NCBI GenBank assembly: GCA_965206645.1 | Contig: CBDBKE010000003.1 | Span: 416,001 to 480,000, forward strand | Reading direction: 5' to 3' | Origin: Terriglobia bacterium | GTDB lineage: Bacteria; Acidobacteriota; Terriglobia; JAJPHL01; JAPKYU01 | DNA: 64,000 nt | Part shown: positions 826-24,595 of the stretch, piece by piece | Numbering within the stretch: the first letter of the stretch is position 1 | Layout of the letters: the number at the start of each line of letters is the position of its first letter | Notes under the pieces: generated by a model | What the model was told of the DNA's origin: nothing | Databases searched by the model: none | What the model saw: only the letters and a program-made list of their open reading frames with translations | Translations under genes and position numbers: made by a program

Positions 826-1004
826 TTTGGTCGAAGGGGAAGGGCAAATCGAAAATTCCGGATAACTACAGGTGTAACAACTAAGCCCGTCCGTTTGAAA
901 GCTGTGCTCGGTTGCACCCAAAGTGGGTGTATATTTTCAATCGCCGGAAGGCCGAAAAGGAAATTCCGGCTCCAATGCCGACCATCCTCCCCTCGGTAAG
1001 CGAC

Positions 1005-2597
1005 ATGACTCGTGTCCTCGGCTGCAGCATCTTGCTCGCAACAGCCGCTGCCGCGCAGGTATACACGATTGAGACCATCGCGGGAGGCGGAGATGGAGTT
1101 GGCGACGACGGCCCGGCTATCAGAGCCAAGTTGACAGAACCAACCGGTGTGGCGGTAGACGCCGCCGGCAACATCTACATTGCAGATCGGCACAATCACC
1201 GCGTACGCAAGGTCGACAGCTCAGGAACCATCAGCACCTTTGCGGGCACGGGGGTGGGCACGAGGGACTATGGTTTCAACGGGGATGGCGGACCAGCGGA
1301 CCGCGCCTTGTTGGCTTTCCCTGAAGGGGTGGTTGTGGACGCCGTGGGCAACGTCTACATCGCAGATACGGACAACCATCGTATCCGCATGGTCGATGCC
1401 TCGGGCATCATTCATACTATCGCGGGCTCGGGAGAGAGTGGTTTTGACGGGGACGACGGCCCGGCCATCAGTGCCTTGTTGAGCGAACCCAGCGGAGTGG
1501 CGACGGACGGGGCGGGCAACCTCTACATCGCCGATTCGAGGAACCACCGGATCCGCAAGGTCGACGCCTCGGGCATCATTCATACTATCGCGGGCACGGG
1601 GGTGGGAGGCGCCACAAGGGAGGGCGGTTTGGCCGTCGAGTCTGATCTATTTAGGCCTCTCGATGTGGCGGTGGACGGTGCTGGCAATATATACATCGCG
1701 GACTTCACTCGCATCTTCAAGGTCGACATCTCGGGTATAATCCGCACTTTCGGGGGGACGGGACGGGCGGAAACTGGCGCTAACGTCTTCGCCCCTCGCG
1801 GCGTGGCGGTAGACGCCGTCGGCAACGTCTACTTTACTAACCCTTCCTTACCCGGTATCCGCAAGGTTGACGTCTCGGGCGCCATTAGTACAGTCGTCGA
1901 ATTGGTGGAAGAGGATAATCTTCCCCGAGGTCTGGCGGTCGACACCTCCGGAATCGTTTACTTCACGGACATCATAAACTTTCGGGTTTACAAGGTCGAC
2001 GCCTCGGGTGCCCTGACCACCATCGCCGGCCTGGGAGTGGGGGACTATAGCGGGGACGGCGGCCCGGCCACGAAAGTCAAATTGGAATTTCCTAGAAACG
2101 TGGCGGTGGACGGCACGGGGAACGTGTATATCCAAGACTTCTCCCGCATTCGCAAGGTTGATGTTTCGGGCATCATTGACACTATCGCGGGCACGGGAGA
2201 AAGAGGCTTTGGCGGAGACGGCGGTCCGGCCACCAGTGCTTTGTTGACTTTCCCTCAAGGAGTGGCGACGGACGGCGCGGGCAACCTCTACATCGCAGAT
2301 GCGGAGAACCACCGCATTCGTGTGGTCGATAGCACGGGTGTCATTCGCACTATCGCGGGTACGGGAGAGGACGGGTTCGGCGGGGACGGCGGCCCGGCGG
2401 TCCAGGCCCAGCTAAACTACCCCCCTGGCGTGGCGCTGGACGATGCGGGCAACGTCTACATCGCCGATACGCACAACCACCGGATCCGAATCCTGACGCC
2501 TGCCGGTGGTGAGCGAGCGCCACTGTTAGAAGAAATACGCGGTCTTCTTCGACTACGATCTGCGGTCCCGACACGCACGTTAGGAGGGAAAAAGTGA
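1005..2597 (+). CDS. Secreted NHL-repeat beta-propeller protein
   Basis: Signal peptide MTRVLGCSILLATAAAAQ, then ~9 repeats of P-x-GVAVDxxGNxYIADxxNHRIRKVD-x-SG-I-x-TIAG with GDGGPA linkers. Confidence 0.9.
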   Translation: MTRVLGCSILLATAAAAQVYTIETIAGGGDGVGDDGPAIRAKLTEPTGVAVDAAGNIYIADRHNHRVRKVDSSGTISTFAGTGVGTRDYGFNGDGGPADRALLAFPEGVVVDAVGNVYIADTDNHRIRMVDASGIIHTIAGSGESGFDGDDGPAISALLSEPSGVATDGAGNLYIADSRNHRIRKVDASGIIHTIAGTGVGGATREGGLAVESDLFRPLDVAVDGAGNIYIADFTRIFKVDISGIIRTFGGTGRAETGANVFAPRGVAVDAVGNVYFTNPSLPGIRKVDVSGAISTVVELVEEDNLPRGLAVDTSGIVYFTDIINFRVYKVDASGALTTIAGLGVGDYSGDGGPATKVKLEFPRNVAVDGTGNVYIQDFSRIRKVDVSGIIDTIAGTGERGFGGDGGPATSALLTFPQGVATDGAGNLYIADAENHRIRVVDSTGVIRTIAGTGEDGFGGDGGPAVQAQLNYPPGVALDDAGNVYIADTHNHRIRILTPAGGERAPLLEEIRGLLRLRSAVPTRTLGGKK

Positions 2598-3310: not shown

Positions 3311-3377
3311 TGACCTGACCGGCACTTTTTGTACCAAGTGGAAAGAGAGAGAATCCACTTGAGGAGGAAGTGAGGTC

Positions 3378-3656
3378 ATGCCGACAAGGAGTTACAAGCC
3401 GGAGCAGATTGTAGCGGTGCTACGGCAGATAGAAGTGCAGATGGGGAACGGGAAGACTGCGCCCCAAGCCTGCAAAGAAGCTGGAATCCACACCCAAACC
3501 TACTACCGGTGGCGGAAGGAATACGGCGGGCTGAAGGTGGTGCAGGCAAAACGGCTAAAGGAGTTGGAGAAGGAAAACACGCGGCTGAAGCGGTTGGTAG
3601 CGGAGCTTTCTCTGGAGAAGCAGGTACTGCGGGATGTGGCACAGGGAAACTTCTGA
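3378..3656 (+). CDS. IS3 OrfA (HTH)
   Basis: 92 aa with YYRWRKEYGGL...RLKELEKENTRLKRLVAELSL. Slippery G GGA AAC at 3644-3650 supports -1 frameshifting into OrfB. Confidence 0.93.
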   Translation: MPTRSYKPEQIVAVLRQIEVQMGNGKTAPQACKEAGIHTQTYYRWRKEYGGLKVVQAKRLKELEKENTRLKRLVAELSLEKQVLRDVAQGNF

Positions 3657-4603
3657 GCCCTGAGCGGCGGCGTTGTGCGGTGGAGCGTGCGTGGGAGCAA
3701 CACGGGTTGTCGGAACGGCATGCCTGCCGGCTGCTGGGGCAATGGCGAGGGACACAACGATACGAGCCGATTCATCGGGTGGACGAGGATGCTCTGACCC
3801 GAGCGATCATTGCCCTGGGAGCGAAGTACGGGCGATATGGCTACCGGAGGATCACAGCGTTGCTGCGGAGTGCGGGCTGGGAAGTGGGCAAGGACCGGGT
3901 GCAGCGGATTTGGCGGCGGGAAGGGCTGAAAGTGCCGCAAAAACAAAGGCCGCGAGGACGGCTGTGGCTGAACGACGGTTCCTGTGTACGACTGAGGCCG
4001 GAGCGACCGAACCACGTGTGGAGCTACGACTTCATGAGTGCCAGAACGCACGAGGGGAGAACGCTGCGGCTGCTGACCTTGCTGGATGAGTACACGCGGG
4101 AATGCCTGGCGATCCGGGTGGAGCGGAGGATGGGCAGCCAACAAATCATTGAGGCGTTGTCGGACGTGATGTTGTGGCGAGGGATACCGGAACAGATTCG
4201 ATCCGACAATGGTCCCGAGTTCATCGCCAAACAACTGCGCCAGTGGTTGGCAAATCTAGGGACCGGGACACTGTACATCGAACCGGGCAGTCCCTGGGAG
4301 AACGGGTACTGCGAGAGTTTCAATGGGAAGCTGCGGGACGAATGCCTGAATGGAGAGATCTTTTACTCCTTGAAGGAGGCACAGGTGGTGATTGAACAGT
4401 GGAGGGTGCAATACAACACGGTGCGGCCGCACTCGGCGCTCGGCTATAGGCCCCCGGCGCCGGGGGCCTATAGAGCCTGTGTGGAAACTCGGTTTAGCTG
4501 GCTGGAAATCAAAAGGGATCATGATTCGCTCCAGAATTCTGGTGTTTCGATCTTCGCCGAGTCGCCGGTCCGGGAGTCTGCTGAACTAGCCTTCCTGATT
4601 TAG
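3653..4603 (+). CDS. IS3 OrfB DDE transposase, C-terminal tail replaced by IS1182-derived sequence
   Basis: WSYDF, SDNGPEF, ENGYCESFNGKLRDE and YNTVRPHSALGY motifs. The native tail is displaced to 5871-5920. Confidence 0.9.
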   Translation: MSPERRRCAVERAWEQHGLSERHACRLLGQWRGTQRYEPIHRVDEDALTRAIIALGAKYGRYGYRRITALLRSAGWEVGKDRVQRIWRREGLKVPQKQRPRGRLWLNDGSCVRLRPERPNHVWSYDFMSARTHEGRTLRLLTLLDEYTRECLAIRVERRMGSQQIIEALSDVMLWRGIPEQIRSDNGPEFIAKQLRQWLANLGTGTLYIEPGSPWENGYCESFNGKLRDECLNGEIFYSLKEAQVVIEQWRVQYNTVRPHSALGYRPPAPGAYRACVETRFSWLEIKRDHDSLQNSGVSIFAESPVRESAELAFLI

Positions 4604-5866
4604 CTTCGGTTTGTTGCGCCACAGGCGGGTGAGGTTGAAGGCCGTTGCGGCCAGCGCGAACTCCACCGCGACCTTCTCCAGGCCCCGCCGCCGGAACTGC
4701 CGCATTCCACGCTGTTCTTTCAAAACCCCGATCACTGGTTCCACGATCGCCTTGCGCCGCTGATAAACCGCCCGGCCGGCCGGGTCGCGCAGCTTGCGTC
4801 GCATTCGCCGATGTTCCGGATGCCGTACAGCAGGTGCTCCGGGCGCGCGTTGGCCTCGGTTCAGTTCCCGCGCCAAGTTCGAGTCGGGCACATAGACGTC
4901 CAGGCCACGCTGGGCCAGTTCCACGATGGTCTCCAAGCAAAAGAAGCCGCTGTCGGCGCTGACCTTCTGCGGGCGTTCCCGGCAGCGCCGCTCGACCGCC
5001 TCCACCAGAGGGACCAGCGTCGCGTTGTCGGTGGCGTTTTGCCCCACGTGCTGCTCGACAATCAGATGATCTTCGCTGACCGCCACCTCCGCCGTGTAAC
5101 CCAGCGTGAATCCCTTGCGGTCGCGCAAAAACCGGCTGTCGGGATCGGTTTCCGAACGCCGCTTCAGCCCGCTTTTGCGCAACCGCTCCAGGCATCGCGG
5201 GATTTCTTCCAGCCGCTTCTCCAGCGCTGCCATCTGCTTGCCGCTCAGTTGCTGGCCAGCCGCTTCCTCGCAGGACTGCGTGTCACATTGTTTCTGCCAG
5301 CGACGAATCTGCCGCCGAATTTTGGCTCGCTCTGCCCTCAACTTGGCCACCGTCTCCACCCGGTCCTGCGAGGCGTTGGCCGCCACCCGCGTCGAGTCCA
5401 TGGCCACGTGTCCCAGCCGCCCCATCCCCAGCGACCGCGCCAACTCCACCACCTGTGTGAACAGATCGTTCAGGGCACGGGCGTGCCGCGTCCGAAACTG
5501 GTTCAGCGTCCAAAAGTCCGGCCCCGCTCCGGCCGCCAGATAACGGAACGCCAGGTCCTCCCGCACCCGCTGTTCCAGACGGCGGGCCGAGGTCACGCCC
5601 AGCGCGTAGGCATACAGCCACACCTTCAGCAACAGCGCCGGATGATAGGCCGGGCGGCCTTCTTCCACGTAGCCCTGCTCAAACGCACTCAGTTCCAGCC
5701 GCTCCACGACTTGGTGCACAAAAAAACAGATGTGATCTTCTCCCAGCACCTCCCGCACGCTGGGCGGTAGCAGATACGCTTGCTCCGGGTTGTAGGTCAA
5801 GAATTTCATCGCGCCCCCTTAAGGCGCATTATACGTGACTCGCAAGAGCGGTTTTCACACAGACTC
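4473..5866 (-). mobile_element. IS1182-family element copy A (1394 bp)
   Basis: Terminal IRs GAGCCTGTGTGGAAAC / GTTTTCACACAGACTC and 4-bp TSD TATA (4469-72, 5867-70). Confidence 0.93.
4586..5809 (-). CDS. IS1182-family transposase
   Basis: GRPAYHPALLLKVWLYAY, SARRLE, PDFWT, MDST, TDPDS, ADSGF and YQRRKAIVEPVIG motifs. Confidence 0.92.
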   Translation of the reverse strand: MKFLTYNPEQAYLLPPSVREVLGEDHICFFVHQVVERLELSAFEQGYVEEGRPAYHPALLLKVWLYAYALGVTSARRLEQRVREDLAFRYLAAGAGPDFWTLNQFRTRHARALNDLFTQVVELARSLGMGRLGHVAMDSTRVAANASQDRVETVAKLRAERAKIRRQIRRWQKQCDTQSCEEAAGQQLSGKQMAALEKRLEEIPRCLERLRKSGLKRRSETDPDSRFLRDRKGFTLGYTAEVAVSEDHLIVEQHVGQNATDNATLVPLVEAVERRCRERPQKVSADSGFFCLETIVELAQRGLDVYVPDSNLARELNRGQRAPGAPAVRHPEHRRMRRKLRDPAGRAVYQRRKAIVEPVIGVLKEQRGMRQFRRRGLEKVAVEFALAATAFNLTRLWRNKPKLNQEG

Positions 5867-5958
5867 TATAGCCCTCCCCTGCCACTGAAACCAGTTTCAC
5901 AGCCCCAGGCTGCGATGTAAACTCTCACTACGGTTGGTACAAAAAATCGGTCTGGTCA

Positions 5959-6010
5959 GTCGAATCAAACGTAAGGCTGGCCGTACAGCGATCACCGTCA
6001 TCGTAGTTAA
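5959..6010 (-). pseudogene. Segment 3 of the scrambled secreted-protein gene
   Basis: Reads NYDDGDRCTASLTFDS, in frame with ...TGTLTF from 7670 once IS1380 and one TTAA are removed. Confidence 0.75.
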
Positions 6011-6115
6011 CCCGGATTTCCGTTTTGAAACTCCAAAGCTAACCTTATACTGACCTCCGACGCCAATATTTATGCCGGTTCCAGCGTCAATACAGCTTCC
6101 GGAGGTAGAAACCGA

Positions 6116-7444
6116 GTGGGTGAGAGGCAAAATCAGCCCTTTCAGTTCTCTTTCAATGCTGCATTGAAGGTCGATTTCCAGGGGTCGCGGGTTACTTCCG
6201 ACGGCGGCCTGATCCTCGTGCGCGAATCAGACGAACATTTGGGATTCGGAGAACTCATCAAACAGCACTTGGCCGATCCTCGGAGAAAGAACACACGGTT
6301 GCCCTTTGCTGACCTCCTGCGCCAGTCCGTGTACAGCCGCTTGGCGGGTTACGAAGATATGAATGACGCGGAACGGCTCTCTCAAGATCCGACGTTCCGG
6401 CTGATCGGTTCAGAAAAGATCTGGGAGCGAGGAGCCGCGTTGACTTCCCGGCTGCAATCGTTCGAGACAGAACTACTGACGCAAGATGAGAACCTGGCTG
6501 GTTTGGCAGCGATCAACCGGGATTTAATCGCCAGGGCGGAAGCTATGGATTCCCCGCAACGGGTGGTGCTGGACATGGACTCGACCGAGATTCCGGTCTA
6601 CGGCCAGCAGGAGCAGAGTGCCTACAACGGGCATTTCGAGTCGAGCTGCTATCACCCGTTGTTGCTGTTCAATCGCGAGGGTGACTGTCTGGCGGCCAAG
6701 CTGCGACCGGGCAACGTGCACAGCGCCGAGGACTGGAAAGAACTTCTCCTGCCGGAGATCGAGCGGCAGCAGCAGCTGGGCAAGGAAGTGGTGTTTCGTG
6801 CCGACGCGGCCTTTGCCAAGCCGGAGATTTACGAGGCTCTGGAGGAGCGGGAGGTAAAGTACGCCATCCGCATCCCGGCTAACGACAGCCTACAGCGGGA
6901 CATTGAGGAGTTGCTGACTCGGCCGGTGGGGAGACCCAGCAAGAAGCCGTTGGTGGAGTTCAAGGGCTTTCTATACCAAGCGGCCAGTTGGAAGACAGCC
7001 CGCAGGGTGGTGGCCAAGGTGGAGCATCATCCAGGGGAGCTGTTCCCGCGAGTAGGGTTTATCGTTACGAACTTGACTCTGCCAAGTCGGGCGGTGATGC
7101 GGTTTTACAACAAGCGGGGGACAGCGGAGCAGTGGATCAAAGAAGGAGAGCAAGCAGTGAAGATGACGCGGCTCAGTTGTCACCGGTTCCGGTCGAACGA
7201 GGTCCGGCTGTGGCTCACCATCATTGCCTATAATCTCGGCAACCTGTGGCGGCGACTGGTGCTGCCACAGAGAATCGGGAACTGGTCCCTGACGAGCTTG
7301 CAACAGCGGTTGGTGAAAACGGGAGGACGGCTGGTGAAACATGCGCGATATTACTGGCTTTTGCTGGCCGAAGGGCACTTGAGCCGGAGGCTGTTCAGCA
7401 GCATGCTGCGAACGATCTCGGCACTGCCGCTGCCAGACGGCTAG
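6116..7444 (+). CDS. IS1380-family transposase
   Basis: TSDGGL, LDMDST, YNGHF...YHPL, RADAAF and YNKRGTAEQWIKEG motifs. Confidence 0.93.
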   Translation: MGERQNQPFQFSFNAALKVDFQGSRVTSDGGLILVRESDEHLGFGELIKQHLADPRRKNTRLPFADLLRQSVYSRLAGYEDMNDAERLSQDPTFRLIGSEKIWERGAALTSRLQSFETELLTQDENLAGLAAINRDLIARAEAMDSPQRVVLDMDSTEIPVYGQQEQSAYNGHFESSCYHPLLLFNREGDCLAAKLRPGNVHSAEDWKELLLPEIERQQQLGKEVVFRADAAFAKPEIYEALEEREVKYAIRIPANDSLQRDIEELLTRPVGRPSKKPLVEFKGFLYQAASWKTARRVVAKVEHHPGELFPRVGFIVTNLTLPSRAVMRFYNKRGTAEQWIKEGEQAVKMTRLSCHRFRSNEVRLWLTIIAYNLGNLWRRLVLPQRIGNWSLTSLQQRLVKTGGRLVKHARYYWLLLAEGHLSRRLFSSMLRTISALPLPDG

Positions 7445-7603
7445 CGAACCGGGAGAGAGGGTAATTTTAGGTGCTCAGAAGTGGTCGGGCCGGATAAGTG
7501 TCAGCGGCGCGGCAGGCTGGGCAGGCGAACCCCGCACAGCGACTCCGAAGAACAGCCAAAATGTGCCGCACTACCACCTCAAAGAGGCCAGAGCTGTTTG
7601 CGG

Positions 7604-7632
7604 TTGACACGACAGGGTACGAGGCATAGCTT
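7604..7632 (+). promoter_or_regulatory. Outward-facing promoter near the IS1380 right end
   Basis: TTGACA-17 nt-TAGCTT just inside IRR. Outward promoters are known for the ISEcp1/IS1380 family. Confidence 0.5.
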
Positions 7633-7669
7633 TTCGGGTGAAGAGGAAGCTCGAAATGGAAATTCCGGG

Positions 7670-8125
7670 TTAAACGTTAACGTTCCCGTATTCGAACCTG
7701 TGTTCCGATAGGTATAGCTTCCCGTATAGGTGTCCGCGCCCTCGGTTTCCCTGAAACGCCCAGGACTGACAAAATCCACATAGGCTGTCGGGTAGTTCGT
7801 CGCTCCCCGTTTACCAACGAAGAGATCGTTGAACGCAGCTTCGTCTGCCGGAGCGAACATCTCGCCCGTAACTCGCGCCAAGCTCGTCCAGATCGGCTGG
7901 GTCACAAACGCTCCTTCGTCATGCGCTTTAAAGCCAATCCCTGTTATGGAGCCAGGCAACAGAGGATCTCCGCGAATTTCAAGCGTTCCCTCCGACGTAG
8001 ACGTACAGGAAAGAACGTCCCTTAACAGGAACGCTCGGTGATGCCTGGCACCGAAGTTCATTGTGGCTCTACAGAGTTCGGCCCCGTCAAAGCCGGTGCG
8101 CGCAATCAGTGTCACATCCTGAGAC
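7670..8125 (-). pseudogene. Segment 2 (inverted) of the scrambled secreted-protein gene
   Basis: Begins with the GTCT TSD mate of 3307-3310 and reads SQDVTLIARTGFDG...YRNTGSNTGTLTFN, in frame with segment 1. Confidence 0.85.
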
Positions 8126-9412
8126 TGACCAGACCGATTTTTTGTACCAACCGTAGTGAGAGTTTACATCGCAGCCTGGGGCTGGGGCAAAACGCCACCG
8201 ACAACGCGACGTGAAACTGGTTTCAGTGGCAGGGGAGGGCTATAGGCCCCCGGCGCCGGGGGCCTATAGGCGAGCGCCGAGTGCGGCCGCACCGTGTTGT
8301 ATTGCACCCTCCACTGTTCAATCACCACCTGTGCCTCCTTCAACGAGTAGAAGATCTCTCCATTCAGGCATTCGTCCCGCAGCTTCCCATTGAAACTCTC
8401 GCAGTACCCGTTCTCCCAGGGACTGCCCGGTTCGATGTACAGTGTCCCGGTCCCTAGATTTGCCAACCACTGGCGCAGTTGTTTGGCGATGAACTCGGGA
8501 CCATTGTCGGATCGAATCTGTTCCGGTATCCCTCGCCACAACATCACGTCCGACAACGCCTCAATGATTTGTTGGCTGCCCATCCTCCGCTCCACCCGGA
8601 TCGCCAGGCATTCCCGCGTGTACTCATCCAGCAAGGTCAGCAGCCGCAGCGTTCTCCCCTCGTGCGTTCTGGCACTCATGAAGTCGTAGCTCCACACGTG
8701 GTTCGGTCGCTCCGGCCTCAGTCGGCCTCAGTCGTACACAGGAACCGTCGTTCAGCCACAGCCGTCCTCGCGGCCTTTGTTTTTGCGGCACTTTCAGCCC
8801 TTCCCGCCGCCAAATCCGCTGCACCCGGTCCTTGCCCACTTCCCAGCCCGCACTCCGCAGCAACGCTGTGATCCTCCGGTAGCCATATCGCCCGCACTTC
8901 GCTCCCAGGGCAATGATCGCTCGGGTCAGAGCATCCTCGTCCACCCGATGAATCGGCTCGTATCGTTGTGTCCCTCGCCATTGCCCCAGCAGCCGGCAGG
9001 CATGCCGTTCCGACAACCCGTGTTGCTCCCACGCACGCTCCACCGCACAACGCCGCCGCTCAGGGCTCAGAAGTTTCCCTGTGCCACATCCCGCAGCACC
9101 TGCTTCTCCAGAGAAAGCTCCGCTACCAACCGCTTCAGCCGCGTGTTTTCCTTCCCCAACTCCTTTAGCCGTTTTGCCTGCACCACCTTCAGCCCGCCGT
9201 ATTCCTTCCGCCACCGGTAGTAGGTTTGGGTGTGGATTCCAGCTTCTTTGCAGGCTTGGGGCGCAGTCTTCCCGTTCCCCATCTGCACTTCTATCTGCCG
9301 TAGCACCGCTACAATCTGCTCCGGCTTGTAACTCCTTGTCGGCATGACCTCACTTCCTCCTCAAGTGGATTCTCTCTCTTTCCACTTGGTACAAAAAGTG
9401 CCGGTCAGGTCA
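8126..9412 (-). mobile_element. IS3-family copy 2, not invaded by IS1182; OrfB frameshifted
   Basis: Same IRs as copy 1. Length 1287 = 1250 + a 27-bp insert (8184-8210) + a 10-bp duplication (8713-8732). OrfA is at 9067..9345. Confidence 0.95.
8240..8269. repeat. Perfect 30-bp palindrome in the IS3 3' end (IS1182 target)
   Basis: CTATAGGCCCCCGGCGCCGGGGGCCTATAG. It is 34 bp in the reconstructed empty sites of copies 1 and 3. Confidence 0.95.
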
Positions 9413-16283: not shown

Positions 16284-16447
16284 TCACGGTAAATGATCAG
16301 CCTGGAAATATTTGGGTCGCAACTGGCACAGATTACAAACCCGAAGAACGAAGCGATCCACGACTGGATGCCTCAACTCTTCCAGCAGGTAGAGCGCCAA
16401 GCTGGGTCGTCAGGGATCGAAGCCACGCGTCGACGGCAGGGTTGCCA
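16284..16447 (-). pseudogene. cas1: Degenerate cas1 C-terminal fragment
   Basis: [32 protein letters not shown] matches the Cas1 motif GxDPxxGFxH...RPSLALDLxEEFRxxxVD, with the His segment deleted. Confidence 0.65.
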
Positions 16448-19400
16448 AAGCCGGGGGCCAACTGGTCTTTCTTTTGTCGAAGGACGGCGGCAATTTGATC
16501 CTTGACGAATAGCTGCTTCAATTCGGCGCTTCTTCCGGCTCTGCTTGCAAAACTTCTTGTCCGCAACATTCTCATGTCTCGCCCTTTCGCCATCCGTGCC
16601 CTTGTTGCCTGGTCTCCAGCCCAGCGTTTCACCCACACATCGGTCTGAGCCTCTTGGATCGCCTTCAGGTGGCCGATCAACTCATCGTACAGCGCTTCGA
16701 GTTCCGCGATCTGCTCGGCAACCTCTTGGCGCACCCGTTCCGGATCGCGTTGGGGCGCCGCTTGAGTCTGAGACGATCTATGCACCGCTGGGCGGCCCAC
16801 GCCCCAGCGATAGTTGAGCCGCACGTAGATGTTAGTGCCGTTGAACCCGAAGGGCGAGAACTGGCCGTAGTAATTGCCGACCGTCCGGATGCCAAACTCG
16901 TTCACGTCGGGGTAAGTATTCAGCAAGTTCTCCCCGCCGATGGCCAGAGCAACGTTTTTCCCGAGCGGGATCCCGAGCTCGACATCGAGCAGCGCCTTGC
17001 CGCCATAGGACGGGTACAGCCACGACTCGGACACGACACCCAAGTCAGCCGCGTTCCGCCCGTCCTCGCTGTCCCAGAACTGACCGAAGTAGTTCAAGCG
17101 GCCCATGAGATTCCATCGGCCGGCGTCGTGATTGACGTTGAAGCTCCACCGCGTGTTCGGCAGCCCCCGTTCCAGCGTAGTGATGCGGAACTGGTCGATC
17201 ACGGAAGATTCGATGTTCTTGACCTCTGTATCCGTGTAGTTGTAGATCGCACTGAACGTCGTGCGCCCCTTCACCAGCGTCGAGATCAGGTCGACGCCCT
17301 GGGTCGTCGTCGAAAAGTCGTTCAAGAAGAACCGGAACACGGGGAAATTCCGTGCTTCTGGAATCCCCTCCGCCAGCAACGTCTCGATCTCGTCATCCGA
17401 CAATTTGATTTCCTGGGCCAGGGCGACGCGGTCGTCGATGTCGACCCGGAAATAGTCCGCGGTGAAGGTGAACGGGCCCTTCTCGAGGACGACGCCCGCG
17501 CTGTAGTTGCGCGATGTCTCCGGTTGGAGCTGGCCTCCGCCCCGCGCCATGGCCACGGCTGAGGTAGCCGGAACCACACCTTGGTTGGTCAGTTGCCCGC
17601 CGATAAAGGCGGTCGTCACGTTGAACGCGTTCTGTTGCCCCGGCGTCGGCGCCCGAAACCCGGTGCTGACGGCGCCGCGCAGCGCGGCCATGCCGGTCAG
17701 CTTGAGGCGCCCGGAGACCTTGTAGTTGACCGTCTTGCCGAAGTCGTCGAAGTTCTCGAACCGGACGGCCGTGCCGAGCGTCCACCGGCCCGGGTCGCTG
17801 AACTCAACGTCGCCATAGACGGCGATGTTGCTACGGCTCCAGGTTCCCGCCGTCGTGTCGGCCCGGTAGCCGTTGAAGCCGTTCGAACCGGAACTGAAGC
17901 CCTGCGCGGCATACGGACCGATCTCCCACGACGGCTGATCGCCGGCGCCAATCGTGAACTCCTCCCTCCTCCACTCCGCGCCGGCGGCCAAGTGCACGAG
18001 ATCGTTGAGGGGGTAGGAAACGTCGAAGTTGAGATTGGTTTCCTTCTGCCGATAGACGCCGGGCCGGAACGACGTCGGCGTGTCGAAACCGAGCGACGCA
18101 TTGACCGTATCGAAAATGAACTGATCGATCTCGCTGGTGCCGATGCTGGCGCTCGCGTCCCAGGTGAAGCCGTTGCTGGCGAACCCGCGCAGACCGCCGA
18201 CCAGCGAGTAGTCGATCAGATCCCCGCCGAACTGCGGAGTGAATCCTCCAGGAAACCGGTTGTGGAGAGTGAAGCAGTTCGGGTCGGCCTCGACTGCGGA
18301 GAGAGCGCCTGCGTCGGGGACGTTGTCGACGATCGGGATGATGGGGCAGCCGCCGGCGCCCGGCTCGCGTCCGGGAGGAGGAACCTTGCTGGTGGGCGCG
18401 GTATCGGCCCAGACCCGGTCGCCGACGAGCAGCGTACGGTTTCCGTCGACCACGGGACCGCGAAAAACCCCGCCCCGCGTGTGTGGATTCCGGAAGTAAA
18501 AGCCCCCGGTCACCTTGCGGGACGCGTAGTTGCCGTGACCGTAGAGTTGATAACGATCGTCGAACAGATGGCCGAAGTTTGCGAACAGCTTGAAGTCGTG
18601 GTTGATTCTCGGCGATCCCCAAACCTGCGCCGTGTCGCGCAGATTCGTATTGCCCGCGTTGATGATGTCCGACGCGTCCTGGCGCTGGATGGCGCGGTTG
18701 GTCGGCTCGGCGGTGCCGTACTCCATGCTGATGTTGCCGAAACCGTTCGCTCCCAGCGGCACCCCGACGTTGCCGGCTACAGAAAACGTCCGGCCGCGTC
18801 CGCCGATTCCGTTACACGAGTGCTTGATGTCACCGATGATGCCCGACCCGCACGTCTCCGGGTTCCCCGAATTGGCATCGAAGAAGCCCCCGGTTTGGAC
18901 TTCCAGGCTGCCTCCCGAGGGATCGTTCTTCAGTTGAAAGTTCATGACTCCGGCGATGGCGTCCGAGCCGTATTGCGCCGCCGCGCCGTCGCGCAGCACC
19001 TCAACCTGCCGAATGGCAATCGATGGAATGATGGAGAGGTCCGGTCCCTGCGAGCCGTCGGCGATGCCATTTCCCAGCCAAGTGATGACCGCCGAGCGGT
19101 GGCGGCGCTTTCCGTTGACTAGGACCAGCGTGTGGTCGGGCGCTAGGTTGCGCAAGTTAGCCGGACGGACGACGGTCCCCGCATCGCTGATCGGCTGAGT
19201 GCTGATGTTGAAGGAGGGGATGACAGTCCGCAACTGGGATACCAAATCCCTGCTACCCTGTCTAGCGAGGTCCTCGGCACGGATGACGTCCACGGGCACG
19301 GTGGACGCGGTCACCGACCGTGGCTCGGCGCGGCTACCGACGACCACGACGGACTGGGCGACGGCGGCCAATTCGAGCGTAAAGTTTCGCAGGACCGATT

Positions 19401-19695
19401 GGCCGGCAATCAGTTCGACGTCATCGGCGATGCCAGTCTCGAAGCCGGGATTCTCAGCCGTAATCGTGTAGACCCCGGGCTCTAGAGTCAATTCGTATGC
19501 GCCGTCGGCATCCGTCGAACCGGTCACCTCGGCTCCGGTGGCGTTGTTGGTCGCCGTTATTTCCGCGCCTGTGATGACTGAGCCGGAATCATCGGTTACC
19601 TCTCCGCGCAAGGTAGCCGTTTGCTGAGCGTACGCGACTCCGGAAACCCCAACCAGGAGCAACATGATTATGACAACAAGACTTCTTTGGAACAT
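16333..19695 (-). CDS. TonB-dependent receptor with N-terminal carboxypeptidase-regulatory-like domain and an anomalous C-terminal extension
   Basis: Signal peptide, [46 protein letters not shown] and [10 protein letters not shown]. The barrel ends at YVRLNYRW (16804). Confidence 0.92.
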
Positions 19696-19840
19696 GGTCA
19701 ACTCCCAAACATAGAGATAATGAACAGCTCACGTATTGCAATACATAAGTATTGTACTCATCCAGTAGGTGTACTCGTCCAGTGGATTAGTGACACTTTG
19801 GCTCCTTGGAAAGGGATTGGTTTTGGGTGAGGAACTCAAG

Positions 19841-20562
19841 CCAGGATTTCCATTTTGTCCCTAACACGGCGACAATTATACACCCGCGCTGCCCCGAATA
19901 CCACCTCTCTTCGCGCTGAACCCTGCACATCACCTCCGCCGGTAGGCGCCAGGGCTCGTCCGTCCGCTCACAGACGTTGCTTGAGCGGGCTGAACGGTGC
20001 TCCGGCCGACAATGCTCCCTGCGAAACCTTTTTGGAGCCAAAAACTGTTGATCCTCACCCGGTCAACGCTACCCACCCGGCACAGGCAGCGCCCAGATCC
20101 GTCGCAGCATGTCGCCGAACAGCCGCCGGTTCAGATACCCCTCGGCCAGCAGCAGCCAGTAATACCGCGCGTGCTTGACCAGCCGACCGCCGGTCTTCAT
20201 CAACCTGTGTTGCAAGCTCGTCAGCGACCAACTCTTGATCCTGTTCGGCAGTCCGAGCCGTCGCCACAAGTTGCCCAGGTTGCAGGCGATGATCGTCAGC
20301 CAAAGCCGTACCTCGTTAGATCGGAACTTGTGGCAACTGAGCCGCGTCATCTTCACCGCCTGCTTGCCTTCCTTGATCCACTGTTCTGCGGTGCCGCGCT
20401 TGTTATAGAACCGCACCACCGCCCGATTCGGCAGCGTCAGATTCGTTACAATGAACCCCACTCGCGGGAACAACTCCCCGGAATGATGCTCTACTTTCGC
20501 CACCACCCTTCGAGCCGTCTTCCAACCGGCTGCCTGGTACAAGAACCCCTTGTGCTCGACCA
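19841..20562 (-). mobile_element. 3' remnant of a second, divergent IS1380 element cut by IS3 copy 3
   Basis: YNKRGTAEQWIKEGKQAVK motif. IRR CCAGGATTTCCATTTT at 19841. The 5' part is replaced by the IS3 IRL. Confidence 0.88.
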
Positions 20563-21724
20563 TGACCTGACCTGCACTTTTTGTACCAAGTGGAAAGAGA
20601 GAGAATCCACTTGAGGAGGAAGTGAGGTCATGCCGACAAGGAGTTACAAGCCGGAGCAGATTGTAGCGGTGCTACGGCAGATAGAAGTGCAGATGGGGAA
20701 CGGGAAGACTGCGCCCCAAGCCTGCAAAGAAGCTGGAATCCACACCCAAACCTACTACCGGTGGCGGAAGGAATACGGCGGGCTGAAGGTGGTGCAGGCA
20801 AAACGGCTAAAGGAGTTGGAGAAGGAAAACACGCGGCTGAAGCGGTTGGTAGCGGAGCTTTCTCTGGAGAAGCAGGTGCTGCGGGATGTGGCACAGGGAA
20901 ACTTCTGAGCCCTGAGCGGCGGCGTTGTGCGGTGGAGCGTGCGTGGGAGCAACACGGGTTGTCGGAACGGCATGCCTGCCGGCTGCTGGGGCAATGGCGA
21001 GGGACACAACGATACGAGCCGATTCATCGGGTGGACGAGGATGCTCTGACCCGAGCGATCATTGCCCTGGGAGCGAACTACGGGCGATATGGCTACCGGA
21101 GGATCACAGCGTTGCTGCGGAGTGCGGGCTGGGAAGTGGGCAAGGACCGGGTGCAGCGGATTTGGCGGCGGGAAGGGCTGAAAGTGCCGCAAAAACAAAG
21201 GCCGCGAGGACGGCTGTGGCTGAACGACGGTTCCTGTGTACGACTGAGGCCGGAGCGACCGAACCACGTGTGGAGCTACGACTTCATGAGTGCCAGAACG
21301 CACGAGGGGAGAACGCTGCGGCTGCTGACCTTGCTGGATGAGTACACGCGGGAATGCCTGGCGATCCGGGTGGAGCGGAGGATGGGCAGCCAACAAATCA
21401 TTGAGGCGTTGTCGGACGTGATGTTGTGGCGAGGGATACCGGAACAGATTCGATCCGACAATGGTCCCGAGTTCATCGCCAAACAACTGCGCCAGTGGTT
21501 GGCAAATCTAGGGACCGGGACACTGTACATCGAACCGGGCAGTCCCTGGGAGAACGGGTACTGCGAGAGTTTCAATGGGAAGCTGCGGGACGAATGCCTG
21601 AATGGAGAGATCTTCTACTCGTTGAAGGAGGCACAGGTGGTGATTGAACAGTGGAGGGTGCAATACAACACGGTGCGGCCGCACTCGGCGCTCGGCTATA
21701 GGCCCCCGGCGCCGGGGGCCTATA

Positions 21725-23118
21725 GAGTCTGTGTGAAAACCGCTCTTGCGAGTCACGTATAATGCGCCTTAAGGGGGCGCGATGAAATTCTTGACCTACA
21801 ACCCGGAGCAAGCGTATCTGCTACCGCCCAGCGTGCGGGAGGTGCTGGGAGAAGATCACATCTGTTTTTTTGTGCACCAAGTCGTGGAGCGGCTGGAACT
21901 GAGTGCGTTTGAGCAGGGCTACGTGGAAGAAGGCCGCCCGGCCTATCATCCGGCGCTGTTGCTGAAGGTGTGGCTGTATGCCTACGCGCTGGGCGTGACC
22001 TCGGCCCGCCGTCTGGAACAGCGGGTGCGGGAGGACCTGGCGTTCCGTTATCTGGCGGCCGGAGCGGGGCCGGACTTTTGGACGCTGAACCAGTTTCGGA
22101 CGCGGCACGCCCGTGCCCTGAACGATCTGTTCACACAGGTGGTGGAGTTGGCGCGGTCGCTGGGGATGGGGCGGCTGGGACACGTGGCCATGGACTCGAC
22201 GCGGGTGGCGGCCAACGCCTCGCAGGACCGGGTGGAGACGGTGGCCAAGTTGAGGGCAGAGCGAGCCAAAATTCGGCGGCAGATTCGTCGCTGGCAGAAA
22301 CAATGTGACACGCAGTCCTGCGAGGAAGCGGCTGGCCAGCAACTGAGCGGCAAGCAGATGGCAGCGCTGGAGAAGCGGCTGGAAGAAATCCCGCGATGCC
22401 TGGAGCGGTTGCGCAAAAGCGGGCTGAAGCGGCGTTCGGAAACCGATCCCGACAGCCGGTTTTTGCGCGACCGCAAGGGATTCACGCTGGGTTACACGGC
22501 GGAGGTGGCGGTCAGCGAAGATCATCTGATTGTCGAGCAGCACGTGGGGCAAAACGCCACCGACAACGCGACGCTGGTCCCTCTGGTGGAGGCGGTCGAG
22601 CGGCGCTGCCGGGAACGCCCGCAGAAGGTCAGCGCCGACAGCGGCTTCTTTTGCTTGGAGACCATCGTGGAACTGGCCCAGCGTGGCCTGGACGTCTATG
22701 TGCCCGACTCGAACTTGGCGCGGGAACTGAACCGAGGCCAACGCGCGCCCGGAGCACCTGCTGTACGGCATCCGGAACATCGGCGAATGCGACGCAAGCT
22801 GCGCGACCCGGCCGGCCGGGCGGTTTATCAGCGGCGCAAGGCGATCGTGGAACCAGTGATCGGGGTTTTGAAAGAACAGCGTGGAATGCGGCAGTTCCGG
22901 CGGCGGGGCCTGGAGAAGGTCGCGGTGGAGTTCGCGCTGGCCGCAACGGCCTTCAACCTCACCCGCCTGTGGCGCAACAAACCGAAGCTAAATCAGGAAG
23001 GCTAGTTCAGCAGACTCCCGGACCGGCGACTCGGCGAAGATCGAAACACCAGAATTCTGGAGCGAATCATGATCCCTTTTGATTTCCAGCCAGCTAAACC
23101 GAGTTTCCACACAGGCTC
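21725..23118 (+). mobile_element. IS1182-family element copy B (1394 bp)
   Basis: Same IRs as copy A and TSD TATA (21721-24, 23119-22). Opposite orientation relative to its host IS3. Confidence 0.93.
21782..23005 (+). CDS. IS1182-family transposase
   Basis: 407 aa, identical to the copy A protein. Confidence 0.92.
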   Translation: MKFLTYNPEQAYLLPPSVREVLGEDHICFFVHQVVERLELSAFEQGYVEEGRPAYHPALLLKVWLYAYALGVTSARRLEQRVREDLAFRYLAAGAGPDFWTLNQFRTRHARALNDLFTQVVELARSLGMGRLGHVAMDSTRVAANASQDRVETVAKLRAERAKIRRQIRRWQKQCDTQSCEEAAGQQLSGKQMAALEKRLEEIPRCLERLRKSGLKRRSETDPDSRFLRDRKGFTLGYTAEVAVSEDHLIVEQHVGQNATDNATLVPLVEAVERRCRERPQKVSADSGFFCLETIVELAQRGLDVYVPDSNLARELNRGQRAPGAPAVRHPEHRRMRRKLRDPAGRAVYQRRKAIVEPVIGVLKEQRGMRQFRRRGLEKVAVEFALAATAFNLTRLWRNKPKLNQEG

Positions 23119-23210
23119 TATAGCCCTCCCCTGCCACTGAAACCAGTTTCACAGCCCCAGGCTGCGATGTGAACTCTCACTACGGTTGGTACAAAAAATC
23201 GGTCTGGTCA

Positions 23211-23408
23211 GGACGACCTCAGAAACCAAAGCACTTGAAGCGCGGCACGATCTTCCCTGTGAAGTGCACACGGGCCGAGTTGCGCCGATTCAAGGCGTTG
23301 GCTTCCTCGGTGCGGGTTCCACTTGCAGAACTGATGCGGGAAGGAGCACGGTTCTACGCTCGGCGGCTAAAGAAGAGAAAAGGCGAGTCGAGAAAGGAGG
23401 AACGATGA
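23211..23408 (+). pseudogene. Small ribbon-helix-helix-like DNA-binding protein, 5' end removed by IS3
   Basis: GRPQKPKHLKRGTIFPVKCTRAELRRFKALASSVRVPLAELMREGA. ATGA overlap with the integrase. Confidence 0.55.
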
Positions 23409-24595
23409 AGACTCGCCGTAGTTTCCAAAATGGCTATGTGACAGATCGTAGGGGTAAGTGGATTATTCGCTGGAGGGAGCGCGTAGTGAAGGACGGGAAG
23501 CTGGCGTGGGCACACCGTCTCGAGACGCTCAGGTCTACCAGTTCGATGACCAAAGGCGAAGCCAGAAAAATCCTGCTAGAACGGCTGGACGAACTCAATC
23601 CGCTTGCCCATTTCCCGGCTCGGGAAACAACGCTGGAGCAACTGGTGAGACGTTGGGAGCAGGAATCGTTGCCCAACAAATCACTGCCCACACAAGCAGG
23701 ATACCGGAAGCTGCTTAAGAAGCACATCCTTGCCGGGGATGGGTTGGCGCTGGTATGTTTGCGGCCACCTGATCTTTCTCCGGGGCTGGTTCAACGTTTT
23801 GTCAGCCGCAAGACTGAAGCGGGGCTTTCGCCACAGACGGTGCGTAACATTTATCACCTGCTGCGCTCGATCTTGCGCTTCGGCATACGTCTCAAGCTAC
23901 TCAGGGAAAACCCATCAAACGGTGTAGAACTGCCTAAGAAGGTGGGGCCTCGTCAAGAGCGGGCTGTGTACACACCGGAGCAAGTCAGCGCCATTTTGAC
24001 GGCGTTCGAGCAACAGGACGATTTACTGTCCCGAACTCTAATTCTGTGCGTCTACTTTACGGGTCTTCGCCGCTCAGAATTATGCGGTTTACGGTGGCAA
24101 GACGCAGACCTCCAAAGGAAGGAGATTCGACCGCAGCGGGCGGTATGGAACGGGCTGGAATGCGACCTGAAGAGCGCAGCCAGCTATTCTGCCTTACCTA
24201 TCCCTGAAATTCTCAGGGATGCCCTCCTCGAACTGCGGCTACGTAGCAGGTTTGCGAATCCCTGTGACCCGGTCTTCGTGGGGCCCGGTGGCAAGCCTAT
24301 GATCCTCGCGAATTGGGTGAGACGAAAGTTGCGTCCTGTTCTTCGACAACTGGCTTTGCCCATGGGTGCTCTTCACAGTTTCCGGCATCCCCGGAGCACT
24401 CGGCTGAATTTCCTTGGCGTTGACCCGCGTACGCTTCAGGCACTAAATCGCCATGCGGATGTGGGGGTGACGTTCAAGCATTACACGCACCTGGTTCCAG
24501 GGGTCCAACGGCAGGCTGTGGATCTCATGGAGGCGGAGTTTCTGGCAGCCCGCGGGAACTCGTGCTCCACTGGTGCTCAAGAGAGGTTGGTTTAG
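23405..24595 (+). CDS. Tyrosine recombinase / phage-type integrase
   Basis: RBS AAGGAGG, arm-binding N-terminus, and TGLRRSEL, LKS, LHSFRH, RHA, KHYTH catalytic motifs. Directly upstream of a tRNA. Confidence 0.92.
   Translation: MKTRRSFQNGYVTDRRGKWIIRWRERVVKDGKLAWAHRLETLRSTSSMTKGEARKILLERLDELNPLAHFPARETTLEQLVRRWEQESLPNKSLPTQAGYRKLLKKHILAGDGLALVCLRPPDLSPGLVQRFVSRKTEAGLSPQTVRNIYHLLRSILRFGIRLKLLRENPSNGVELPKKVGPRQERAVYTPEQVSAILTAFEQQDDLLSRTLILCVYFTGLRRSELCGLRWQDADLQRKEIRPQRAVWNGLECDLKSAASYSALPIPEILRDALLELRLRSRFANPCDPVFVGPGGKPMILANWVRRKLRPVLRQLALPMGALHSFRHPRSTRLNFLGVDPRTLQALNRHADVGVTFKHYTHLVPGVQRQAVDLMEAEFLAARGNSCSTGAQERLV

What the first reader, a model, noticed from the sequence alone, without database searches (positions are those of the whole stretch)
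4442..5873. IS1182 targets one TATA at the foot of a palindrome inside IS3, in both orientations
Seen: both IS1182 copies (4473-5866 minus, 21725-23118 plus) duplicate the same TATA in the 3' arm of GGCTATAGGCCCCCGGCGCCGGGGGCCTATAGCC. Both host IS3 copies are on the plus strand, so these are two independent insertions or a precise flip. The site lies after all OrfB catalytic motifs and leaves both IS3 IRs intact. Established: some IS1182 members prefer palindromic or REP-like targets. Inference: IS1182 rides the IS3 as a satellite, and the 2648-bp composite may still be mobile.
Basis: partly seen in the sequence, partly recalled or inferred. Interest (0 to 1): 0.7.

Follow-up and report, generated by a model that had tools for sequence, protein, structure and literature searches.

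The report
Jumping gene nesting inside another
A small bacterial jumping gene (IS1182 family), whose relatives insert into short mirror-image repeats, finds a look-alike of that target near the end of a second, very abundant jumping gene (IS3 family), so most of its copies sit there harmlessly, and the pair may travel between bacteria together.

Summary
Observation confirmed. Both IS1182 copies are identical and duplicate the same TATA in a plus-strand IS3, in opposite orientations. Genome-wide, 30 of 36 intact IS1182 ends sit at this IS3 hairpin, including all 9 copies of the youngest sequence type. Short-read contigs support both orientations.

In 107 related elements from other genomes, the 4-bp duplication is the centre of a short dyad (GGSY-TNNA-RSCC), often a REP-like repeat of the kind that flanks a RAYT gene. 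A long hairpin is rarely involved. The IS3 3' arm mimics this target, occurs about 70 times and is a neutral site. IS1182 has its own intact transposase and also inserts elsewhere, so it is not a true satellite.

Movement of the composite as a unit is unproven: 0 of 9 composites have their own duplication, but only 7 of 59 empty IS3 copies do. Co-transfer is plausible, because in two other genomes the only copy of this IS3 is a composite. The hairpin is conserved by two-sided changes in an IS3 subclade. The scan noted this pairing before on another piece of this genome. Verdict: a new variant of known palindrome targeting.

The parts
3311..5958 (+). Composite 1: IS3-family element (1250 bp when empty) carrying IS1182 in opposite orientation, 2648 bp
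3378..3656 (+). IS3 OrfA, 92 aa, helix-turn-helix
   Evidence: PF01527
3653..4603 (+). IS3 OrfB (DDE integrase core) in the -1 frame to OrfA, with a slippery-type heptamer at 3644-3650 (read from the sequence; frameshifting inferred); the native tail of 16 residues is replaced by 43 residues read from IS1182
   Evidence: (NF033516, 236.7 bits, cut-off 160)
4442..4472 (+). IS3 palindrome up to the insertion: 5' TATA at 4445-4448, 3' TATA at 4469-4472 (left copy of the duplication)
   Evidence: fold; conservation
4473..5866 (-). IS1182-family element, 1394 bp, terminal inverted repeats matching at 14 of 16 bases
4586..5809 (-). IS1182 transposase, 407 aa, intact
   Evidence: NF033551, 321.3 bits, cut-off 270
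5867..5958 (+). Right copy of the TATA duplication (5867-5870) and the remaining 3' end of IS3 with its right inverted repeat
5959..8125 (.). Segment inverted between two oppositely oriented IS3 copies; holds an IS1380 at 6009-7668. The left flank of composite 1 joins the right flank of the third IS3 with a 4-bp duplication
8126..9412 (-). Third IS3 copy, empty target site (TATA at 8241-8244); carries a 10-bp duplication that shifts OrfB and a 27-bp piece of IS1182 interior in its tail
20563..23210 (+). Composite 2: IS3 carrying IS1182 in the same orientation, 2648 bp; OrfA 20630-20908, OrfB open to 21762 with a 12-residue foreign tail
21694..21724 (+). IS3 palindrome up to the insertion; TATA at 21721-21724
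21725..23118 (+). IS1182-family element, identical to the first copy; transposase 21782-23005
23119..23210 (+). Right copy of the TATA duplication (23119-23122) and the IS3 3' end

Best explanation
An autonomous IS1182-family DDE transposon recognises a short 2-fold symmetric target (GGSY-TNNA-RSCC, often extended to a 5-8-bp stem). It cuts with a 4-base stagger across the centre, so the centre is duplicated and both orientations arise. In free Acidobacteriota sites this target is often a REP-like palindrome of the kind that flanks RAYT genes. One IS3 subclade carries a conserved 34-36-bp palindrome over its G-Y-R-P-P codons, and the mirror arm of it happens to spell such a target. This genome has only a few native REP-type sites but about 70 IS3 copies, and insertion there removes only a non-conserved OrfB tail, so IS3 is the main tolerated landing site. 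Repeated insertion, later shuffled by recombination among copies, gives the observed pattern. Shown: target consensus, duplication, both orientations, recurrence in six genomes, recombinants. Inferred: the chemistry (by analogy to DDE transposases), selection against other sites, and dispensability of the tail.
For: (1) Among 107 distinct clade elements with both flanks, half-site consensus is G.85 G.69 G.59 C.92 | T.82.. A.81. Flank pairing at distances 2-8 from the duplication exceeds the partner-shuffled control (for example 0.83 vs 0.54 and 0.67 vs 0.39). (2) A matrix built from other genomes, with the IS3 site left out, gives the IS3 3' arm 11.3 bits (training quartile 10.3, median 15.1) and the 5' arm 7.4. 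In the main IS3 type, 11 upstream junctions are at the 3' arm and 0 at the 5' arm, although a cruciform would make the two arms equivalent. (3) The best-scoring site of the genome lies beside a RAYT gene (NF047646, 117.9 bits, cut-off 80), flanked by 26-bp inverted repeats that by eye resemble sites used in other genomes. A second site lies within 150 bp in 11 of 40 clade sites against 9 of 162 controls (p=2e-4). (4) Close relatives use plain dyads with other centres and no long hairpin (L003, L004; G000 C4:26796). (5) In G001, 5 inspected copies of an abundant IS3 variant have the long hairpin but a weaker 3' site (6.8 bits); none of the 9 inspected IS1182 ends (of 11 matches) lies in that variant. 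(6) Markers 30 and 48 bp from the junction take both alleles within an orientation, which gives at least 4 events. (7) Tails after the site are unrelated among variants, and G004 holds 10 near-identical copies with a shifted tail.
Against: (1) The motif alone does not explain the bias. At the score of the IS3 site there are 70 IS sites, 105 other coding sites and 42 non-coding sites by crude gene calls. Nine of 9 young copies in IS3 has p=4e-5 against all sites and p=0.015 against IS3 plus non-coding sites, if the events are independent. (2) The better native sites at the RAYT locus are empty. (3) Lower-scoring arms of diverged IS3 variants were also hit (3.8 and 4.8 bits). 5' arms were hit in G000 variants, G004, G018 and G055, in G055 where the sister copy has a poor motif. 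This suggests the long hairpin adds something. (4) The matrix pools transposases of 45-97% identity, so it is only an approximation for this enzyme. (5) Only 46 of 107 elements have a perfect 4-bp duplication. (6) Mosaic SNPs in repeats may be partly consensus artefacts; only some were seen in read contigs.
Confidence: 0.62

Rival explanations
1. Hitch-hiking. After a few insertions, the composite is moved as one unit by the IS3 OrfAB acting on the intact IS3 ends (copy-out, paste-in). This amplifies the 3'-arm composites and carries IS1182 into new hosts. It can act together with the best explanation.
For: 6 of 9 composites keep TG...CA ends and open OrfA/OrfB. In G002 (same genus) and G001 (=G132, another family) the only copy of this IS3, 99.4-99.7% identical to G000, is a composite with an 87% IS1182 variant. 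In G002 it is also the only IS1182 found by the end pattern. These genomes have 30 and 20 plain matches to the short motif, so hitting the single IS3 by chance twice is unlikely (roughly 1/31 x 3/21, my estimate). All young copies are at the arm that spares the conserved OrfB motif.
Against: No composite in G000 (0 of 9), G001 or G002 has its own duplication. In G002 the left IS3 end has lost its first 3 bases. Composites share no derived haplotype; the one alike pair also shares its flank, so it is a segmental duplication. The G001 and G002 composites have opposite orientations. The G001 copy lies near other DNA 97-99% identical to G000, so transfer inside a larger segment is possible.
Confidence: 0.3
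2. Structure-guided targeting. The transposase recognises the extruded long hairpin or cruciform and inserts at a foot of the stem, as IS1272 targets stem-loops.
For: The hairpin is real and kept by two-sided changes in an IS3 subclade (26 cells, 0 of 500 shuffles). Both feet have been hit across variants, including low-scoring ones. The residual bias beyond the motif needs some cause.
Against: Long inverted repeats are not enriched at clade sites (2 of 39 non-IS3 sites vs 6 of 162, p=0.65). The split is 11:0 between two structurally equivalent arms in the main IS3 type. Hairpin-bearing variants in G001 were not hit among the ends inspected. IS1272 deletes its stem-loop and makes no duplication, unlike here.
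Confidence: 0.15
3. Homing by recombination. IS1182 spreads from composites into empty IS3 copies by gene conversion through the shared IS3 flanks, with no further transposition.
For: IS3 SNPs are mosaic. Chimeric IS1182 copies (old half, young half) and head-to-head recombinants exist (C4:47287-51018, C4:1098004, C4:1075785). An inversion between IS3 copies lies in the window.
Against: It needs at least two founders, plus conversion tracts that end within 30-50 bp of the junction, to give the marker alleles. It does not explain insertions by other IS1182 variants into other IS3 variants in five other genomes.
Confidence: 0.12
4. Assembly artefact: collapsed or mis-joined repeats create the apparent fixed site or one of the orientations.
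For: Most IS3 copies lack matching flanks (only 3 of 30 testable left flanks have a contiguous partner). Several copies hold odd short IS1182 pieces.
Against: Read contigs of other samples branch exactly 5 bases outside the IS ends and show the empty site. The same junctions occur in five independently assembled genomes.
Confidence: 0.03

Closest known systems
IS1182 family, members that target palindromes (IS1272, TnSha1; PMC5678879, PMC4923244, passages read)
   Same: Same transposase family; inserts at inverted-repeat sequences; repeated insertion into one target in both orientations.
   Different: IS1272 has no primary consensus, deletes the stem-loop and makes no duplication. This clade has a clear consensus and duplicates the 4-base centre, the outcome drawn as hypothetical 'pathway c' (loop duplication) in PMC5678879.
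REP-targeting insertion sequences (ISPsy8, ISPa11, ISPpu9/10, ISRm19/22; PMC1525189, abstract read)
   Same: Use of a repeated extragenic palindrome as a safe, many-copy target.
   Different: Those named in the abstract are from Pseudomonas and Sinorhizobium; none is given there as IS1182. Here the dominant target in this genome is a mimic inside the coding end of another IS.
RAYT/TIRYT-associated repeats of Acidobacteria (PMC3733652 section 16 read; PMC6006769 passages read)
   Same: Palindromic repeats flanking Y1 transposase genes in Acidobacteria, as at G000 C4:709929-710513.
   Different: The parts I read do not name them as targets of an IS1182 element. I could not see the figures or supplements that list the repeat sequences, so identity with a named repeat family is not tested.
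IS3 family host element (IS407 group by recalled features)
   Same: OrfA/OrfB in -1 frame, TG...CA ends, 4-5-bp duplications.
   Different: A subclade (about 77% OrfB identity or more) carries a 34-36-bp perfect palindrome over the last conserved codons, which more distant members lack.
IS-on-IS targeting by IS1182 members (recalled from ISfinder/Siguier 2015; the review is not held)
   Same: I recall that some members insert into palindromes inside other IS, which would make IS-in-IS targeting known for the family.
   Different: Recalled only, not verified. No IS3-tail case was found in the searches run.

Membership tests
IS1182 family | Single DDE transposase matching the family model | tested here: met
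   NF033551 321.3 bits, cut-off 270; PF05598 + PF13751
IS1182 family | Terminal inverted repeats and a short target duplication | tested here: met
   14 of 16 bases match; 4-bp duplication
IS1272-type stem-loop replacement | Deletion of the target hairpin, no duplication, no sequence consensus | tested here: not met
   Target kept, 4 bases duplicated, consensus present (papers). One old copy lacks the hairpin interior (C2:11119-9726), which recombination between two insertions can also explain
IS3 family (host) | OrfA HTH and OrfB DDE in -1 frame; family model | tested here: met
   PF01527, PF00665, PF13683; NF033516 236.7 bits, cut-off 160
IS3 family (host) | TG...CA ends and 3-5-bp duplication | tested here: met
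   Ends; duplication in 7 of 59 empty copies, confirmed in two insertions into other repeats
IS407 group of IS3 | Clustering with reference IS407-group transposases | not tested
   No reference set used; label recalled
REP-targeting IS | Insertion sites are members of a RAYT-associated repeat family | tested here: inconclusive
   Sites resemble, by eye, the repeats flanking the RAYT of G000, and they cluster; repeat families were not counted per host genome
Satellite element | Depends on the helper's machinery for its own mobility | tested here: not met
   Own intact transposase; insertions outside IS3 with perfect duplications
Compound mobile unit (IS3 with cargo) | Copies of the whole unit with their own duplication, or circle junctions | tested here: inconclusive
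   0 of 9 vs 7 of 59, p=0.58; no circle joint listed, but contigs of a stretch lacking the left IS3 end cannot show it
Compound mobile unit (IS3 with cargo) | Activity of OrfAB with the replaced tail | not testable with these tools
   Needs an assay; indirect support from variable tails

The most novel reading that the evidence does not exclude
A two-element partnership. An IS3 subclade of Acidobacteriota maintains a hairpin that acts as a landing pad mimicking REP loops. IS1182 docks there without inactivating its host, and the 2.65-kb composite is moved by the IS3 transposase and carries IS1182 between bacterial families. This would be an insertion sequence that uses another as its vehicle, which would explain the lone composites in G001 and G002.
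Probability: 0.27. Interest if true: 0.68.

Novelty: new variant of a known kind. Interest (0 to 1): 0.42.

Why it matters
It defines a target rule for a widespread Acidobacteriota IS1182 clade: a short dyad, often a RAYT-type repeat, with the 4-base centre duplicated. This differs from the one IS1182 mechanism described in the papers read (IS1272, stem-loop deletion). It also shows how a target mimic inside an expanding IS becomes a safe harbour, and it gives a simple test of whether one IS can ride another across hosts. A DDE transposase with a 12-20-bp preference is of modest tool interest. The conserved IS3 hairpin is a separate open question. It is not a new class of system.

Tried and rejected
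Precise flip: not needed. The two copies are identical end to end, and the target is symmetric.

Long hairpin as a general target: not enriched.

Strict TATA specificity: the exact 12-base dyad with TATA occurs 63 times at IS3 and 0 times elsewhere, but only about 2 are expected elsewhere by my estimate, and close relatives use other centres.

Duplication test for composite mobility: no power.

Matching of left and right IS3 flanks across copies: 29 shared 4-mers against 17.8 expected. Only 3 of 30 testable flanks have a partner, so most partners are lost rather than swapped.

the pattern was wrong (G000, the positive control, gave 0), so the result was discarded; the junction was found in G000 only, among 301 phylum genomes searched. 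That sample did not include G001, G002, G004, G018 or G055.

End-pattern searches found nothing in G003, G026, G065 and G156, and one non-IS3 end in G034.

Read depth was not used as copy number. The '14 of 17' line was a rough placeholder and is not used.

Literature searches listed no report of IS1182 in an IS3 tail, of IS1182 sites in Acidobacteria, or of this IS3 hairpin. Listings only were seen for most hits, and the Siguier 2015 review is not held.

Full report
Observation. The window is G000:C3:416001-480000 of a 4.4-Mb, four-contig genome. Its IS1182 relatives lie in Acidobacteriota records. Two identical 1394-bp elements lie at 4473-5866 (minus) and 21725-23118 (plus), each with a 407-aa IS1182-family transposase (NF033551, 321 bits, cut-off 270). 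Each sits between two copies of TATA in the 3' arm of a 34-bp palindrome near the end of orfB of a plus-strand IS3-family element. A third IS3 at 8126-9412 shows the empty site. The IS3 family model is complete before the site. Only the last 16 residues of OrfB are replaced, by 43 or 12 foreign residues.

Genome-wide pattern. There are 68 IS3 copies with both ends, 9 of them composites, 6 co-directional and 3 opposite. Of 36 intact IS1182 ends, counted by hand abut the IS3 hairpin, 5 do not and 1 is unassigned; 32 read TATA. All 9 copies of the youngest sequence type lie in the 3' arm. The older, diverged copies include the non-IS3 sites and 5'-arm insertions into IS3 variants. Markers 30 bp upstream and 48 bp downstream take both alleles within an orientation, which implies at least four insertions unless conversion tracts ended very near the junction. 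In read contigs of run X4, the IS is one contig that ends 5 bases outside each end, as expected when both ends meet both flanks; X1 shows the same boundary on one side, and the empty site is seen in X8 and X11. No listed piece spans a whole locus.

What the target is. I fetched 159 loci of relatives. Of these, 118 had both ends, and 107 were distinct with flanks. Their half-sites agree on GGSY next to a T..A core. In the 46 with a perfect duplication, the flanks pair with each other more than shuffled partners do out to about 8 bases. The duplicated bases are therefore the centre, or loop, of a short dyad. Among the rows visible (the output was cut between L070 and L085), only L005 had both ends in an IS3 tail, and L006 one end. 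A long inverted repeat holding the site was found in 3 of 40 sites against 6 of 162 controls, while a second target-like site nearby was found in 11 of 40 against 9 of 162. The best-scoring site in G000 lies beside a REP-associated tyrosine transposase flanked by 26-bp inverted repeats that, by eye, resemble sites used elsewhere. Such repeats are described for Acidobacteria in PMC3733652 (section 16 and passages read) and PMC6006769 (passages). I could not see their figures or supplements, which list the repeat sequences. I infer that RAYT-type repeats are a native target and that the IS3 arm is a mimic. A matrix from other genomes scores the 3' arm 11.3 bits and the 5' arm 7.4, matching the 11:0 use in the main IS3 type.

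What the motif does not explain. At that score the genome has 70 IS sites, 105 other coding sites and 42 non-coding sites by crude gene calls. Nine of 9 young copies in IS3 has p=4e-5 against all sites, and p=0.015 if coding sites are not tolerated. The better native sites are empty. Low-scoring arms of IS3 variants were hit as well. Selection covers much of the excess. A contribution from the hairpin, from conversion between copies, or from movement of the composite remains open.

Other genomes. IS1182 ends at the IS3 hairpin were seen in G001 (3 of 9 ends inspected, of 11 matches), G002 (2 of 2), G004 (6 of 9, of 13), G018 (2 of 10, of 28) and G055 (1 of 2), but not in G034 (0 of 1). With G000 these span four families. 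In G001 (=G132, another family) and G002 the only copy of this IS3, 99.4-99.7% identical to G000, is a composite with an 87% IS1182 variant. The orientations are opposite, and the two IS1182 copies differ at 6 bases. In G002 no other IS1182 end was found. This points to co-transfer, or to a stronger preference than the motif predicts. Neither composite has its own duplication, the G002 left end is damaged, and the G001 copy lies near other DNA shared with G000, so transfer inside a larger segment is not excluded. The junction was not found in 300 other phylum genomes searched.

Mobility of the composite. Six of 9 composites have TG...CA ends and open OrfA/OrfB. The OrfB tail is not conserved, and G004 amplified 10 copies with a shifted tail, so activity is plausible. 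However, 0 of 9 composites have a cognate duplication, against 7 of 59 empty copies (p=0.58), and no composite haplotype exists. Most IS3 flanks have lost their partners. The left flank of composite 1 belongs with the right flank of the third IS3, showing an inversion of 5959-8125. Chimeric and head-to-head IS1182 copies show recombination between copies.

The IS3 hairpin. In 20 distinct tails (19 hairpin-bearing ones picked, with damaged, frameshifted and composite rows left out, plus one relative without the hairpin), 92.5% of cells pair, with 26 two-sided changes and only 2 G-T cells; 0 of 500 shuffles reach this. The selection of rows favours the structure, and relatedness inflates the test. 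In one search, below about 75% OrfB identity the pairing is mostly absent. The 3' arm follows the 5' arm even when residues change. This fits DNA-level mirror copying by template switching, or a selected hairpin. Its function is untested.

Comparison and verdict. Palindrome targeting is known for IS1182 members (PMC5678879 and PMC4923244, passages), but IS1272 deletes its stem-loop with no duplication, whereas this clade duplicates the centre. REP targeting is known for other IS (PMC1525189, abstract). The bioRxiv paper (passages) did not bear on targets. I recall that ISfinder lists IS1182 members inside palindromes of other IS; the review was not held. Searches listed no report of this pairing. 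The finding is real and is a new variant of a known habit. The satellite reading is not met, and hitch-hiking is possible but unproven. Interest 0.42.

Noticed in passing
window 4442-4472; loci L227-L286: An IS3 subclade keeps a 34-36-bp perfect palindrome over its last conserved OrfB codons by two-sided changes; more distant IS3 relatives lack it. Function unknown.
   Followed up: partly
window 3311, 5959-8125, 8126-9412: Local inversion between two opposed IS3 copies, shown by a 4-bp duplication split between composite 1 and the third copy.
   Followed up: yes
window about 8184-8210; G000 C1:364305-364370, C4:1604479-1604540, C4:834283-834313, C3:859567-860928, C2:446645-446941: Short pieces (27-66 bp) of IS1182 interior inside or beside IS3 copies, and copies with many small deletions. 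These may be consensus artefacts at loci that are mixed for the insertion, or repair scars. No such insert was listed in read contigs.
   Followed up: partly
G000 genome-wide: Only 7 of 59 empty IS3 copies keep a target duplication and 27 of 30 testable left flanks have no partner: heavy IS-linked deletion and rearrangement in an IS-rich genome.
   Followed up: partly
L322:630-1214 (G000 C4:709929-710513): RAYT gene between 26-bp perfect inverted repeats with further REP-like dyads; these hold the best IS1182-type target of the genome, unoccupied.
   Followed up: partly
L205 (G004), L321 (G055), G000 C1:312059: The 4 bases next to the IS end differ from the IS3 sequence, twice towards tetramers typical of REP-type sites. 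61 of 107 clade elements have imperfect duplications. Conversion between copies is one explanation.
   Followed up: no
G018 C2:350835-350975, C3:1086763-1086902, C4:1461998-1462138: Pairs of IS1182-type ends about 140 bp apart: probable MITE derivatives of this clade.
   Followed up: no
L229, L240, L246 (G004): Ten IS3 copies share an altered tail that makes the short dyad perfect and shifts the OrfB end; those inspected are empty.
   Followed up: partly
window 6009-7668, 59043-60702, 20054-20562: Two near-identical IS1380 copies and a diverged IS1380 fragment cut by composite 2.
   Followed up: no
window 912-2597, 16333-19701, 23186-24595: NHL-repeat beta-propeller protein, TonB-dependent receptor with carboxypeptidase-like domain, and a tyrosine integrase directly after composite 2.
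   Followed up: no
L255, L256: Several other IS and genes in G001 and G002 are 97-99.8% identical to G000, which points to recent exchange of mobile DNA across families.
   Followed up: no
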